A stretch of 6,111 bases of DNA, taken from positions 1 through 6,111 of the IMG/VR virus record IMGVR_UViG_2778261182_000003; one strand, written 5' to 3'. The notes beneath the pieces are model-generated. The model saw only the letters and a program-made list of their open reading frames with translations. It was not told the DNA's origin and made no database searches. This document shows, piece after piece, positions 1 to 6,111 of this stretch (within the stretch, counting starts at the first letter, position 1; every line of letters begins with the position of its first letter). The translations under genes were made by a program, and so were the position numbers. The stretch comes from a virus (lineage: Duplodnaviria; Heunggongvirae; Uroviricota; Caudoviricetes).

Positions 1-81
1 TCACTTTAAAAAGGGCGGACATCAGCCAGCAATGAAAACTGATGCCGCCAAAGGTACAAATCAACATGGAGTGTTGTAGCG

Positions 82-118
82 GGGTTGTCACTTAAGCGTA
101 TGGTCAACCTGACAACCC
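82..118. repeat. Perfect 9-bp inverted repeat GGGTTGTCA / TGACAACCC separated by 19 nt
   Basis: Read directly: 82-90 GGGTTGTCA and 110-118 TGACAACCC are exact reverse complements. The following sequence GGCGCATTTTCT has only a short T-run set 6 nt from the stem, so it is a poor intrinsic terminator; a protein-binding site or RNA hairpin is equally possible. Confidence 0.4.
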
Positions 119-298
119 GGCGCATTTTCTGGAGCAATGGAGGAAACCCCAGCCATACTTACCGCCGCGCCATTTCGCGGATTGCCACAACCGGAAGCGC
201 ACGGTCGAATTAAATTTAACGACACTACGAACTTCGCCGTGCACTTTCGTGTTGTGTGCCTGCTTTTAACCACGTCAGGCGAGGTGGTTCCTGTCATT

Positions 299-346
299 CC
301 CCAACAACAAGAAATTTGTATAATCCGGATACCCCAACAACGAGAA
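299..346 (+). promoter_or_regulatory. Candidate promoter for the downstream + strand gene: TATAAT -10 (319-324) bracketed by two 15-bp direct repeats CCCCAACAAC[A/G]AGAA
   Basis: TATAAT at 319-324 with TG immediately 5' of it (317-318). Direct repeats at 299-313 (CCCCAACAACAAGAA) and 332-346 (CCCCAACAACGAGAA) match 14/15. No good TTGACA-like -35 was found at 16-18 bp spacing, so promoter strength and identity are uncertain. Confidence 0.3.
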
Positions 347-381
347 GAGTGCTCAACGTGATAGCAGAACTGTCAGCGGCT

Positions 382-870
382 ATGGCTGCGATAAAGGAGA
401 CAGCTGGCCTCGCAAAGGTTATTAATGACGCAAAAACGGATGCAGAAGTTAAAGCCGCAACTATTGAACTTCAGAACAAACTAATCACGCTTCAGGCGGA
501 GTGCTTCTCTCTTGGCGATGCGATCCGTCTTCGTAACGAAGAGATAATGCTTCTCAAAGCAAAAATTGCAGAATTCGAAAACTTTCAGATTCAGACTGAA
601 GGTTATGTTCTTAACCAACTCGAATCGGGTGCTTTTGTATACTCGAAGGAGGAAACGGTGAATGGAGGCACTGTTACTATGCATCTTTGTCCAAAATGTT
701 TTGGACAAAAGACAGTATCTATACTCCAGCCATTCCCGGTTAGCGAAGATGCGCCTTTTCATGAAAGTAAGTGTCTCCACTGTGAAAACAAGTTTCTGAT
801 GAACAAAAATCCGGATTACATACCGCTGTCTTTTGATGAGATAGCGAGAACACTGGGCAGTAATCCGTAG
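382..870 (+). CDS. Hypothetical protein, ~162 aa: N-terminal coiled-coil-like region and C-terminal CxxC-x24-CxxC zinc-ribbon; no transmembrane segment
   Basis: Long ORF in the six-frame track (256..870); first in-frame ATG is at 382 (MAAIKETAG...). Alternative starts are GTG 358 or GTG 256; no convincing Shine-Dalgarno precedes 382, so the start is uncertain. Cys pairs CPKC and CLHC are 24 residues apart. I recognise no family. Confidence 0.55.
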   Translation: MAAIKETAGLAKVINDAKTDAEVKAATIELQNKLITLQAECFSLGDAIRLRNEEIMLLKAKIAEFENFQIQTEGYVLNQLESGAFVYSKEETVNGGTVTMHLCPKCFGQKTVSILQPFPVSEDAPFHESKCLHCENKFLMNKNPDYIPLSFDEIARTLGSNP

Positions 871-996
871 GTTATTGCTGTTGTGGATATCCAGATTGTT
901 AAAGAACATGCCGGATTCTTATCCGTGTCCGGCGCACGACCAAACGCTGTCACGTGTGGTCTCCATTCTCAACCAGTAACCTCAATGGAGGATAAA

Positions 997-1206
997 ATGC
1001 CAAACAAGCCAATACATCCGCTTATTGAAAAACAGATTGAATGCCTAGTTAATCAACTCAGGCAATCAGGGTTATTAAAAACTCATTCAGAGCTAGGGCT
1101 CACAGAATCGGCATTCGACGATAAATTAAATAATGCGCTTTATAATGGCATCATTGATTACAATCGTGGCGCTGGTCGTCGTGGCCCTGCTGGTACAGCT
1201 TTGTAA
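997..1206 (+). CDS. Hypothetical small protein, 69 aa
   Basis: ATG at 997 preceded by GGAGG (987-991) with 5-nt spacing; in frame with track ORF 883..1206 (which begins at a GTG). Stop TAA at 1204-1206. Alternative start ATG 985 lacks an SD. I recognise no family. Confidence 0.5.
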   Translation: MPNKPIHPLIEKQIECLVNQLRQSGLLKTHSELGLTESAFDDKLNNALYNGIIDYNRGAGRRGPAGTAL

Positions 1207-1857
1207 TTACCAGTTAATCCATAGCGGATAGTGTTCAGCATAAATATAACTATACACATCCAGGTTGTATTTGCGGTCTGTCCTTAGCAGGTCGCAAATA
1301 CAGGCCGCAGCTTCCAGGGCAGCAGCTTTGTTGCTGAATAACCATGTAGCAACATTCCAGCGATTATCTGTATCCCACTCTTTTGCGAGAGTTGACACCA
1401 CGAAGGAGCCGTTGGTATTGCCATCAAATACTTCCGTTTCCAGATTTTTACGTAATGCCTGGTGAATTCTTGCCAGATATTCAGTCGGAATTTCGCCACG
1501 AATTCGGATAAGGTTGTCATAAACAAACATGTTCCCCGCATATGGCGATTTTTCTTTCCTGCATTTTAAGCCAGCATCACGGGTAAACTGGTCAATTTCT
1601 TCTTCGGTTTGTTTCGTATTGATGTTTTGCGTTATCGTTTCTGCAATGGGCTTTGCTTTATTTTCTACACAATGATTGTTTGTGAACGAATCTGAATACA
1701 GTCCGGTAAAAGAATTGCGGACATGATTTGATAAATTTCTGATGAACACCTTATCTACTAATATCATTGGGTTCCGCGCCAGTTGCGAGCGAATCACATC
1801 AGCGGCCATTTCCTGTATTGGTAGTGGTAAATCTTTAAATTCCATCGTCAGCCTCAT
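1207..1857 (-). CDS. Hypothetical protein, 216 aa, soluble, unknown function; second gene of the leftward early operon
   Basis: Uninterrupted 651-nt ORF on - strand. Start ATG (1857-1855) overlaps the TGA stop of the upstream small gene by 1 nt (TGATG), indicating translational coupling. Alternative start 4 codons downstream (ATG 1845-1843) has a GAGG SD. No Walker motif or hydrophobic segment; no family recognised. Confidence 0.7.
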   Translation of the reverse strand: MRLTMEFKDLPLPIQEMAADVIRSQLARNPMILVDKVFIRNLSNHVRNSFTGLYSDSFTNNHCVENKAKPIAETITQNINTKQTEEEIDQFTRDAGLKCRKEKSPYAGNMFVYDNLIRIRGEIPTEYLARIHQALRKNLETEVFDGNTNGSFVVSTLAKEWDTDNRWNVATWLFSNKAAALEAAACICDLLRTDRKYNLDVYSYIYAEHYPLWINW

Positions 1858-5735: not shown

Positions 5736-6111
5736 ATGGCAAAAGTATTTACACAAGAAGAGCGGGAAAAAATTAAGGGGCAGATTGTTGAACTTGTACG
5801 TCTGAGCGGTCGCGAGACGTTACGGCAACTGGAAGCGAAAACAGGTGCGACAAGATATCTGATGAGTGTTCTCGCCAGAGAGCTGGTTGCCAGTGGCGAT
5901 GTATACAATTCTGGCTACGGGTTATTTCCGTCTGAACAGGCTCGTAAGGACTGGCAAAACGCCCGCATAAAACTATCGAGGGCAAAGGCGAAGAAACCGG
6001 TTATGGTTGATCCGGACCTTATCTGGTCATTACCAGACGGAGAAATACGCCGCTACGACAGGCGTCAGAACATGATTTGCCGTGAGTGCCGGGAAAGCGA
6101 AGTTATGCAGC
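5736..6111 (+). CDS. Hypothetical protein, 5' portion only (at least 125 aa, continues beyond the window); N-terminal winged-helix-like segment
   Basis: ATG 5736 preceded by GGAGG (5726-5730) at 5-nt spacing; frame open to the window end (not in the ORF track because no stop is reached). Begins MAKVFTQEEREKIKGQIVELVRLSGRETLRQLEAKTGATRYLMSVLARELVASG. Confidence 0.6.
   Translation, partial: MAKVFTQEEREKIKGQIVELVRLSGRETLRQLEAKTGATRYLMSVLARELVASGDVYNSGYGLFPSEQARKDWQNARIKLSRAKAKKPVMVDPDLIWSLPDGEIRRYDRRQNMICRECRESEVMQ

What the first reader, a model, noticed from the sequence alone, without database searches (positions are those of the whole stretch)
299..1206. Convergent, probably lysogen-expressed module: coiled-coil/zinc-ribbon protein (~162 aa) plus 69-aa protein, at the position where lambdoid prophages carry superinfection-exclusion genes
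This gene pair is transcribed opposite to the PL-like operon and has a candidate promoter of its own (TATAAT 319-324). That is the arrangement of moron/exclusion genes such as sieB-type loci in Rac, P22 and lambda. The first protein combines a long predicted helical region with a CxxC-x24-CxxC zinc ribbon and has no membrane segment, unlike SieB. The 69-aa partner has its own strong RBS. I recognise neither as a described defence or exclusion family.
Basis: partly seen in the sequence, partly recalled or inferred. Interest (0 to 1): 0.65.

Follow-up and report, generated by a model that had tools for sequence, protein, structure and literature searches.

The report
Rip1-type prophage defence gene plus unrelated small gene
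The larger gene is a new member of the recently described Rip1 family of prophage anti-phage pore-forming proteins and sits behind the same promoter that drives the classic sieB exclusion gene of phages P22 and lambda, while the 69-codon gene next to it is a real but separate gene of unknown function.

Summary
The sequence features are real. ORF1 (358-870, +) starts at GTG 358 and encodes 170 aa, not about 162. ORF2 (997-1206, +) encodes 69 aa. Both run against the leftward early operon of a Qin/Rac-like E. coli prophage, between a ydfC-position gene and the DicF sRNA (13-62, -).

ORF1 is not an unknown family. It is a homologue of Rip1 ("ring interacting pore 1", Patel et al., Nature 2026). 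A family profile matches HK446 Rip1 (PDB 9OOX) at E=2e-20 over nearly the full length. The AlphaFold model (pLDDT 90) matches 9OOX by Foldseek (E=1e-7). All four zinc-ribbon cysteines are invariant.

The region upstream of ORF1 (258-357) is homologous to the mapped P22/lambda sieB promoter and sas antisense-RNA region. This supports TATAAT 319-324 as the -10 and predicts a transcript start near A331.

The "pair" is not a conserved module. ORF1 and ORF2 are adjacent in only 6 of 5,426 E. coli genomes, and each occurs alone elsewhere. ORF2 is under purifying selection (dN/dS 0.21) but has no recognisable fold or family.

Verdict: ORF1 is a new member of a known kind, and the defence interpretation is largely right. 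The two-gene-module idea is not supported.

The parts
13..62 (-). DicF sRNA (context). It shows that the target genes lie inside the leftward ydfA-...-dicF-dicB operon, antisense to its transcript.
   Evidence: Rfam RF00039 at 44 bits (gathering score 48), E=5e-8, full model length. dicB is annotated just left of the matching region in L001, L007 and L008.
225..910 (+). Rip1 cassette as a mosaic unit: promoter/leader, ORF1 and a 40-nt 3' flank.
   Evidence: blastn map. O157 and STEC316 loci match window 1-224 and 909/911 onward but lack 225-910. L007 and L008 carry the cassette without ORF2.
258..287 (+). Conserved 30-nt element GCCTGCTTTTAACCACGTCAGGCGAGGTGG, upstream of the -35 position. On the minus strand it corresponds to the 3' stem-loop part of the P22 sas antisense RNA.
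   Evidence: Nearly invariant in the alignment of window, E. coli, Klebsiella, HK446, P22 and lambda leaders (A3). The reverse complement of the published P22 sas RNA sequence (PMC13397905) equals the P22 row. Found in at least 120 IMG/VR contigs ahead of about 35 different ORF families.
289..312 (.). Hairpin enclosing direct repeat 1 (CCCCAACAACAAGAA, 299-313). The stem pairs 289-293 with 308-312, and the loop carries the repeat motif.
   Evidence: RNAalifold on 22 antisense-strand leaders. Pair counts show 4 of 5 pairs with compensatory changes and 85% of cells paired, against 18-54% in slid controls for the whole structure.
319..324 (+). -10 hexamer TATAAT of the sieB-type promoter. The predicted transcript start is about A331.
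   Evidence: Aligns with the -10 (TAAACT) of the annotated P22 sieB promoter (NC_002371 29690-29720). The annotated P22 RNA start at 29727 aligns with window A331. Not tested experimentally for this locus.
332..346 (+). Direct repeat 2 (CCCCAACAACGAGAA), at the predicted 5' end of the ORF1 mRNA. A weak Shine-Dalgarno-like GAGAAGAG lies at 342-349.
   Evidence: Sequence. The duplicated motif differs between cassettes but is always present twice: CCCCAACAAC, CCCCTACAG, TTCCACAGTCAA, CCCCCACAA and CCCCAATGCAA.
358..870 (+). ORF1, a 170-aa Rip1-family protein. It has N-terminal Ala/Gly-rich amphipathic helices (1-80) and a C-terminal beta-rich four-Cys zinc-ribbon domain (81-150) followed by a short tail helix.
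   Evidence: phrog_1244 at E=5e-55. Profile against 9oox_L 'ring interacting pore 1 (Rip1)' gives E=2e-20 over query 5-151 and chain 15-160 of 164. BLASTP gives 26% identity to HK446 gp37 (E=7e-16) and 29% to JBD30 gp30 (E=1e-21). AF2 pLDDT is 90. Foldseek to 9oox_M gives E=3.5e-7, TM 0.58/0.74.
911..996 (+). Conserved structured 5' leader of ORF2, with hairpins at about 910-933 and 938-961, then GGAGG. ORF2's native -35/-10 is missing here.
   Evidence: Alignment A6 and sequences. In O157 the leader is preceded by TTTTCA-17-TAAACT. In the window, ORF1's 3' flank occupies that place. Fold is -27.6 kcal/mol, z=-2.3.
997..1206 (+). ORF2, a 69-aa two-helix protein of unknown function. It is an independent accessory gene.
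   Evidence: phrog_4274 at E=5e-42. dN/dS is 0.21. More distant homologues have 42-55% identity. AF2 gives pLDDT 82.5 with helices 8-24 and 37-60. No fold or family match was found.
1207..1857 (-). 216-aa leftward gene (phrog_2151, at the ydfC position). It is context: in E. coli it travels tail-to-tail with ORF2.
   Evidence: phrog_2151 at E=7e-96. It is adjacent to ORF2 in L001, L009, L010 and L021-L024 but not in Salmonella L019/L020.

Best explanation
ORF1 is a prophage-encoded, single-protein abortive-infection defence of the Rip1 family. In the lysogen it is transcribed rightward from a sieB-type promoter (-10 at 319-324, start near A331), against the repressed leftward dicBF-type operon.

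By analogy with characterised Rip1 proteins, the idle protein is harmless. When a superinfecting phage reaches late gene expression, the C-terminal zinc-ribbon domain binds a ring-shaped phage oligomer, either the small terminase or the portal. About twelve copies assemble around the ring. Their N-terminal amphipathic helices then form a membrane pore, and the cell dies or lyses before progeny are made.

ORF2 is a separate small accessory gene of unknown function. Its own promoter was displaced when the Rip1 cassette came to lie upstream, so here it is probably co-transcribed with ORF1. The pair is a fusion of two independent cassettes in a hypervariable hotspot, not a two-component system.

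Shown: homology, fold, conserved cysteines, promoter homology, and independent distribution of the two genes.

Inferred: expression in the lysogen, the trigger, pore formation, and co-transcription.
For: Family membership:
- Profile against PDB sequences gives E=2e-20 to HK446 Rip1 over nearly the full length.
- Pairwise BLASTP gives E=7e-16 and E=1e-21 to HK446 gp37 and JBD30 gp30.
- The AF2 model has pLDDT 90.
- Foldseek ranks the two 9OOX Rip1 chains first (E=1e-7 and 3.5e-7), and the next hit has E=0.3.
- The four Cys plus L38, Q46, L66, Y83, V94, Y95 and L123 are invariant from Pseudomonas to E. coli members.

Mechanism known for the family: the review PMC13434031 section 5, summarising Patel et al. 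2026, and the PDB title of 9OOX.

Domain pattern: the N-terminal 80 residues are more conserved than the C-terminal domain (mean pairwise identity 0.64-0.69 against 0.50). The halves are also shuffled between alleles, for example P0004 at N 61% / C 94% and P0115 at N 86% / C 31%. This fits a conserved effector joined to a diversifying sensor.

Arrangement: a lone gene on the opposite strand inside the early-left or late operon, seen in HK446, HK620, JBD30, PhiR49_1 and Klebsiella Rac-like prophages.

Promoter: homology to the P22 sieB promoter with a mapped RNA start.

Independence of ORF2.
Against: - Identity to the characterised members is only 26-29%, so trigger specificity cannot be transferred.
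- No expression data or phenotype exists for this allele.
- The -35 is poor and the start codon is GTG with a weak Shine-Dalgarno sequence.
- The N-terminal amphipathic moment is moderate (0.31-0.34).
- Net charge is -7, against +3 for HK446 Rip1.
- I could not read the primary Rip1 paper, only a review summary and the PDB entry.
- ORF2's function is entirely unknown, so a role linked to ORF1 in this particular prophage cannot be excluded.
Confidence: 0.75

Rival explanations
1. ORF1 and ORF2 form a two-component system. ORF2 would act as partner, regulator or antidote of ORF1, as anti-Tab does for Tab or Esc for SieB.
For: They are adjacent, on the same strand and probably co-transcribed in this window. 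ORF2 lacks its usual promoter here. Prophage defences sometimes carry a self-immunity partner (Tab/anti-Tab, PMC10884400).
Against: They are adjacent in only 6 of 5,426 E. coli genomes. ORF1 homologues stand alone in L007, L008, L011-L016, HK446, HK620 and JBD30. ORF2 stands alone in about 590 E. coli genomes and in a different Salmonella element. The review describes Rip1 as a single-protein system.
Confidence: 0.08
2. ORF1 is a Rip1-like relic that is not expressed or no longer functional in this Qin/Rac-like, possibly defective, prophage. It would be silenced by convergent transcription or by its weak translation signals.
For: The -35 is poor, the start is GTG and the Shine-Dalgarno sequence is weak. 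The generic promoter scan did not list the site. The gene lies antisense to the dicBF-type operon.
Against: The reading frame is intact and 99% identical to copies in other genomes. The family shows conserved residues, and homologues share the GTG start and the leader. The leader is homologous to a promoter shown to be active in P22 lysogens. The leftward operon is repressed in the lysogen by the DicA-like repressor, which is established for Qin.
Confidence: 0.1
3. ORF1 has a different function. It could be a zinc-ribbon nucleic-acid-binding regulator or a SieB-like membrane exclusion factor that happens to share the Rip1 fold.
For: Zinc ribbons often bind nucleic acids. Identity to the tested Rip1 proteins is low (26-29%). 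The locus is the sieB locus.
Against: There is no similarity to P22 SieB (BLASTP E=7.6) and no transmembrane segment. The similarity to Rip1 is full-length, covering both the helical and the zinc-ribbon halves. No DNA-binding family hit was found.
Confidence: 0.05

Closest known systems
Rip1 (ring interacting pore 1) of Escherichia phage HK446 (gp37; PDB 9OOX, in complex with T6 small terminase). Patel et al., Nature 2026, as summarised in PMC13434031.
   Same: The architecture matches over the full length: an N-terminal Ala/Gly-rich amphipathic helix, a long helix, and a beta-rich four-Cys domain. It is a single gene on the strand opposite to the PL operon. It sits behind the same sieB-type promoter/leader with the same 30-nt upstream element.
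   Different: Only 26% identity. ORF1 has a 19-residue C-terminal tail with an extra helix, a net charge of -7 rather than +3, and a conserved Cys49. The leader repeat motif is CCCCAACAAC rather than CCCCTACAG. The host element is a Qin/Rac-like prophage, where the gene lies between a ydfC-position gene and dicF rather than between N and cIII. The trigger is unknown.
Pseudomonas Mu-like phage Rip1-type gene (JBD30 gp30, D3112 orf25, DMS3 homologue)
   Same: 29% identity over 157 residues with the same cysteines. It is a lone opposite-strand gene. [quoted passage not shown]
   Different: It lies in the late operon of a transposable phage, not the early-left operon. There is no sieB-type leader. 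Escape mutations for the Pseudomonas system map to the portal protein.
SieB / Esc / sas of P22 and SieB of lambda and Rac
   Same: Same genomic position and orientation. The promoter/leader DNA is homologous, including the region that encodes the sas antisense RNA in P22. Both are abortive-type defences expressed from the prophage.
   Different: The proteins are unrelated. SieB is a membrane protein (Pfam PF14163), and ORF1 has no transmembrane segment. An Esc-like internal isoform has not been shown for ORF1. The in-frame ATG 382 (M9) exists but is not invariant in the family.
Tab / anti-Tab of Pseudomonas phage JBD26 (PMC10884400)
   Same: Tab is an opposite-strand, own-promoter prophage defence gene in the same terminase hotspot where the Pseudomonas Rip1-type gene sits. 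It acts late, on virion morphogenesis proteins.
   Different: Tab is an 83-aa protein reported to have no known similarity, and it needs a partner (anti-Tab) for self-protection. ORF1 has no conserved partner.

Membership tests
Rip1 (ring interacting pore 1) | Significant full-length sequence similarity to an experimentally characterised Rip1 | tested here: met
   The profile of 33 homologues against 9oox_L gives E=2e-20, covering query 5-151 and chain 15-160 of 164. BLASTP gives E=7e-16 to HK446 gp37 and E=1e-21 to JBD30 gp30.
Rip1 (ring interacting pore 1) | Same fold as the solved Rip1 chain: N-terminal helices plus a C-terminal ring-contacting domain | tested here: met
   AF2 pLDDT is 90. 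Foldseek against the PDB gives 9oox_L and 9oox_M at E=1.2e-7 and 3.5e-7, with TM 0.58 (query) and 0.74 (target) and rmsd 3.5 over 123 columns. The next hit has E=0.3.
Rip1 (ring interacting pore 1) | N-terminal amphipathic helix with no classical transmembrane segment | tested here: met
   Helices at 2-24 and 28-79. The hydrophobic moment is 0.31-0.34 for windows 7-30 and the highest KD19 is 1.06. Values are similar for HK446 Rip1 and JBD30 gp30. The measure is crude.
Rip1 (ring interacting pore 1) | Single-gene system with no obligate partner, prophage-borne, on the opposite strand with its own promoter | tested here: met
   A lone opposite-strand gene in six different prophage contexts. ORF2 is not a conserved neighbour.
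Rip1 (ring interacting pore 1) | Binds ring-shaped phage oligomers (small terminase 11-mer or portal) as a roughly 12-mer and forms a membrane pore, giving abortive infection | not testable with these tools
   Known for HK446 and Pseudomonas Rip1 from the review PMC13434031 and PDB 9OOX.
SieB (Pfam PF14163) | Sequence similarity to SieB and a membrane-spanning N-terminal region | tested here: not met
   BLASTP against P22 SieB gives E=7.6. There is no Pfam SieB hit and no transmembrane-grade segment.
sieB-type promoter / sas antisense cassette (P22, lambda) | DNA homology to the P22 sieB promoter and leader, with the -10 and RNA start in register | tested here: met
   blastn of window 240-360 hits P22 'sieB: promoter' and lambda 34396-34481. 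In alignment A3, P22's -10 aligns with TATAAT 319-324 and the P22 RNA start aligns with A331.
sieB-type promoter / sas antisense cassette (P22, lambda) | An antisense RNA is actually made and switches translation of the downstream gene | tested here: inconclusive
   The minus strand of 246-363 is homologous to the published P22 sas sequence (A5). A hairpin around repeat 1 shows compensatory changes. No sigma-70-like minus-strand promoter was found inside ORF1. The whole-strand fold is not better than shuffles (z=+0.56).
Known defence systems in PADLOC 2.0 / Pfam / NCBIfam (for ORF2) | A profile hit above threshold | tested here: not met
   No hit for ORF2 in PADLOC, Pfam or NCBIfam. There is only the unannotated phrog_4274. 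No structural neighbour was found.

The most novel reading that the evidence does not exclude
The 30-nt element plus duplicated-motif leader upstream of ORF1 may be a portable expression and antisense-control platform that carries interchangeable, lysogen-expressed cargo genes. It is shared with P22/lambda sieB and HK446 rip1, and precedes about 35 cargo ORF families in at least 120 viral contigs.

Under this reading, leftward transcription on induction, or from a superinfecting relative with the same leader allele, would produce a sas-like RNA. The loop of that RNA carries the anti-repeat and would kiss the repeat at the 5' end of the mRNA. That would shut off the defence gene and so give self-immunity.

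The co-varying duplicated motif would then be the specificity determinant. ORF2 and the roughly 30 unannotated cargo families would be undescribed anti-phage or host-modifying genes.
Probability: 0.3. Interest if true: 0.65.

Novelty: new member of a known kind. Interest (0 to 1): 0.35.

Why it matters
It gives a function to a gene annotated as hypothetical. DNA relatives of that gene are present in 735 of 5,426 complete E. coli genomes, including O157:H7. The assigned function is a Rip1-type sensor-effector that should abort infection by phages whose terminase or portal rings it recognises.

The allele is only 26-29% identical to the tested proteins, and its sensor half is shuffled between alleles. 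It is therefore a ready candidate for mapping how Rip1 specificity diversifies.

The gene shares the sieB promoter/sas region. This links a 1993 antisense-control paradigm to a 2026 defence family and marks a hotspot in which most cargo genes are still unknown. ORF2 is one of those unknowns.

Tried and rejected
- Pfam, NCBIfam and PADLOC scans of ORF1 and ORF2 gave nothing above threshold. PADLOC 2023 predates Rip1. Only unannotated PHROGs matched.
- Rfam at gathering thresholds found nothing. DicF appears only in E-value mode, 4 bits below the gathering score.
- ORF2: tblastn against phage genomes found nothing. An exhaustive HMMER search found only 5 other proteins below E=1e-3; three are small homologues of similar length, one (P0158) looks like a frameshifted copy, and the repeat protein P0160 is probably spurious. 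The profile against PDB sequences, and Foldseek against PDB and BFVD, gave no significant match.
- ORF2 as a partner of ORF1 was rejected on distribution.
- ORF2 as a partner of the 216-aa phrog_2151 gene holds in E. coli and E. albertii but not in Salmonella, so it was left open and not claimed.
- SieB homology of ORF1 was rejected.
- A dedicated minus-strand promoter for a sas-like RNA inside ORF1 was not found.
- Folding the antisense strand or the ORF1 5'UTR gave energies no better than shuffles.
- The strand preference of the repeat-1 hairpin from G-U against A-C counts was not decisive: 12 against 8 cells, my count.
- The primary Rip1 paper (doi 10.1038/s41586-025-10075-1) and Tsao et al. 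2018 are not in the library. Statements about the Rip1 mechanism therefore rest on the review PMC13434031, a meeting report (PMC12908700) and the PDB entry.
- A literature search for hkaP gave only unrelated hits.
Full report
**Context**

The window is the immunity and early region of a Qin/Rac-like lambdoid prophage of E. coli. Its best match is the ompW-integrated prophage of strain RM9088.

The genes run in this order, left to right:
- DicF sRNA at 13-62 on the minus strand (Rfam RF00039, 44 bits, E=5e-8). dicB lies just outside the window.
- ORF1 (358-870, +).
- ORF2 (997-1206, +).
- A 216-aa leftward gene (1207-1857, phrog_2151).
- A DUF1391/ydfA-like gene.
- A DicA-like repressor (2213-2620, -).
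- A Cro/DicC-like gene, a YdaT-like gene and DnaT-like replication genes.

The two target ORFs therefore lie inside the leftward ydfA...dicF-dicB operon and are antisense to its transcript.

**Observation check**

The main correction is the start of ORF1. Thirty-two homologues align from MIAEL..., some with ATG at the position where the window has GTG 358. RefSeq annotates the 99%-identical copy as 170 aa.

The CxxC-x24-CxxC motif is C111/C114/C139/C142. No segment reaches transmembrane hydrophobicity.

ORF2 has GGAGG seven bases before its ATG. It shows purifying selection in its own frame only. Against the O157 allele there are 15 synonymous and 13 non-synonymous changes, giving dN/dS 0.21. 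The other frames give 0.44 to 1.8.

**What ORF1 is**

Pfam, NCBIfam and PADLOC give nothing, and PHROGs gives the unannotated phrog_1244. A homologue search finds more than 200 proteins, all labelled 'hypothetical'. They span Enterobacterales, Plesiomonas and Shewanella.

A tblastn search against phage genomes finds distant relatives:
- HK620 hkaP, annotated 'putative superinfection exclusion protein'.
- HK446, HK629 and HK630.
- The Pseudomonas Mu-like phages JBD30, DMS3, D3112 and MP38.

An AlphaFold model built on 33 sequences has pLDDT 90. It shows a helix at 2-24, a long helix at 28-79, a beta-rich domain at 84-150 and a tail helix.

Foldseek against the PDB returns only two significant hits. 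Both are chains of 9OOX, 'HK446 Rip1 in complex with the T6 small terminase' (E=1.2e-7 and 3.5e-7, TM 0.58/0.74). The next hit has E=0.3.

The family profile matches the 9OOX Rip1 sequence ('ring interacting pore 1') at E=2e-20. The match covers residues 5-151 of ORF1 and 15-160 of 164 in Rip1.

Pairwise BLASTP gives 26% identity to HK446 gp37 (E=7e-16) and 29% to JBD30 gp30 (E=1e-21). The four cysteines and seven other residues are invariant from Pseudomonas to E. coli members. ORF1 is unrelated to SieB.

**What is known about Rip1**

I could not obtain the primary paper (Patel et al., Nature 651:1060, 2026). The following comes from the review PMC13434031, section 5, a meeting report and a preprint:
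- Rip1 is a single prophage protein that is both sensor and effector.
- It is not toxic alone.
- Escapers map to the portal in Pseudomonas phages and to the small terminase in E. coli phages.
- Twelve Rip1 monomers ring an 11-mer small terminase.
- The C-terminal half contacts the ring, and the N-terminal amphipathic helices form a pore.
- The pore releases dye from liposomes and makes holes in cells, so phage maturation is cut short by premature lysis.

I infer that ORF1 works the same way. The trigger for this allele is unknown.

The conservation pattern fits a fixed effector joined to a diversifying sensor. The N-terminal 80 residues average 0.64-0.69 pairwise identity and the C-terminal domain 0.50. 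The halves also recombine independently, for example N 61% / C 94% in P0004 and N 86% / C 31% in P0115.

**Arrangement and promoter**

In every context examined, the Rip1-type gene stands alone on the strand opposite its neighbours:
- Between N and cIII/ral in HK446 and HK620.
- Next to cI in PhiR49_1.
- Between kilR and the repressor, or next to a cI-like gene, in Klebsiella prophages.
- Between dicB/dicF and ydfA in E. coli.

The roughly 110 bases upstream of ORF1 are far more conserved than the protein. They are shared with HK446 rip1 and HK620 hkaP, where protein identity is only 26%, and with the sieB genes of P22 and lambda (alignment A3).

P22's record annotates the sieB promoter at 29690-29720 and the sieB RNA start at 29727. 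In the alignment, these fall on the window's TATAAT (319-324) and on A331. It has not been tested for this locus.

**Antisense control (inferred)**

The published sequence of the P22 sas antisense RNA (PMC13397905, Table 2) is the exact reverse complement of the P22 row of that alignment. The conserved leader is therefore also the sas region.

In P22, sas pairs with the sieB mRNA and switches translation from SieB to its inhibitor Esc (PMC12197685). My own recollection of Ranade and Poteete 1993, not checked here, is that this lets P22 escape its own exclusion.

In the window, the minus strand of about 246-363 is the homologous stretch. A motif is present twice: CCCCAACAAC at 299-308 and at 332-341. 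One copy lies in the promoter spacer and the other at the predicted 5' end of the mRNA. Other cassettes carry a different motif, but always twice.

A hairpin that presents the first copy in its loop has compensatory changes in 4 of 5 pairs across 22 leaders.

A plausible reading, which is inference only, is this. A leftward transcript made on induction yields a sas-like RNA. Its loop nucleates pairing with the repeat at the mRNA 5' end and shuts off ORF1, protecting the prophage's own lytic growth.

Two results count against a dedicated RNA. I found no sigma-70-like minus-strand promoter inside ORF1. The strand as a whole does not fold better than shuffles.

**ORF2 and the 'pair'**

A blastn map shows three mosaic blocks:
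- 1-224: the dicF side, common to all.
- 225-910: the Rip1 cassette.
- 911 onward: the ORF2 leader, ORF2 and the 216-aa gene.

ORF1 and ORF2 are adjacent in 6 of 5,426 complete E. coli genomes. Some genomes carry ORF1 without ORF2. About 590 genomes, including O157:H7, carry ORF2 without ORF1. A Salmonella integrative element carries ORF2 in yet another context, again on the opposite strand.

Wherever it occurs, ORF2 keeps an 85-nt structured leader (two hairpins, z=-2.3). In O157 the leader is preceded by TTTTCA-17-TAAACT. In the window, ORF1's 3' flank occupies that position. No terminator lies between the ORFs. ORF2 is therefore probably read from the ORF1 promoter here.

ORF2 is a two-helix protein (pLDDT 82.5). 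It has a few 42-55% homologues and no fold or family match. Its function is unknown. The best guess is another stand-alone lysogen-expressed accessory gene.

**Hotspot**

In 103 of these, an ORF of at least 40 aa starts 33-151 nt downstream. These ORFs fall into about 35 clusters:
- Rip1-like: 12.
- SieB: 10.
- A 144-148-aa family: 12.
- A 106-107-aa membrane family: 12.
- A small zinc-ribbon family: 10.
- An 81-aa family: 8.
- The rest are small clusters and singletons.

Only SieB hits Pfam or PADLOC. I do not know whether this has been described before.

**Verdict**

ORF1 is a new, divergent member of the Rip1 family and sits at the sieB locus behind a sieB-type promoter. DNA relatives of ORF1 occur in 735 of 5,426 complete E. 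coli genomes, and this allele (at least 99% identity) in 8.

Noticed in passing
window 258-287; loci L025-L143 (IMG/VR): A nearly invariant 30-31-nt element (GCCTG(N)CTTTTNNNCACNTCAGGCNNGGTGG) precedes about 35 different same-strand ORF families in at least 120 viral contigs. Only SieB among them is a known family. There are two leader classes. In the short class, TATACT-like -10 sequences directly follow GGTGG, and a TTCACC/TTAACC -35-like hexamer lies inside the element. In the long class, a duplicated motif flanks a downstream -10.
   Followed up: partly
window 299-313 and 332-346; alignments A3 and A5: The direct repeat flanking the -10 differs between cassettes (CCCCAACAAC, CCCCTACAG, TTCCACAGTCAA, CCCCCACAA, CCCCAATGCAA), but both copies always carry the same motif. 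The first copy sits in the loop of a hairpin supported by compensatory changes. This may be the recognition loop of a sas-like antisense RNA.
   Followed up: partly
L002 (PPompW_14040) 6067-6104: The same 30-nt element occurs between two leftward genes (ydfC and the next gene) with no annotated rightward gene after it. The short-class cargo of L039 (a 68-aa zinc-ribbon ORF) has an identical leader, so an unannotated small ORF may be present there.
   Followed up: no
window 911-996; L002 5060-5184; L009 3412-3537; L019 3375-3500: There is a second portable leader. The hairpin GCCGGA...TCCGGC at the predicted 5' end is shared by ORF2 and by an unrelated 77-aa rightward gene of PPompW phages, with a TTTTCA-17-TAAACT promoter. 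The second hairpin of the ORF2 leader exists in two forms whose loop and inner stem are inverted relative to each other: cgctgtcacg in the window and L010, cgtgacagcg in O157.
   Followed up: partly
window 63-224 (-): The stretch upstream of DicF on the leftward transcript is conserved wherever dicF is present. It contains a long inverted repeat (GGGGTTGTCA...TGACAACCC, about 80-120). It is presumably part of the DicF precursor that is processed by RNases. This was not examined.
   Followed up: no
window 1207-1857 (-): The 216-aa leftward gene (phrog_2151) has no Pfam or PADLOC assignment. Its N-terminal 50-90 residues are shared with several other PHROGs (1363, 6937, 9419), which suggests a common N-terminal module joined to variable C-termini at the ydfC position.
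   Followed up: no
L079 (IMG/VR), ORF 71 nt after the element: This is a 136-aa cargo protein with a Gly/Ala-rich N-terminal helix, a coiled coil and a C-terminal CxxC...CxxC motif. It has the same architecture as Rip1 but no BLAST similarity to it, so it may be a very distant Rip1-like protein.
   Followed up: no
window 382-384: An in-frame ATG (M9) lies 8 codons into ORF1. P22 sieB makes an inhibitor (Esc) from an internal start, so a shorter isoform is conceivable. M9 is common but not invariant in the family.
   Followed up: partly
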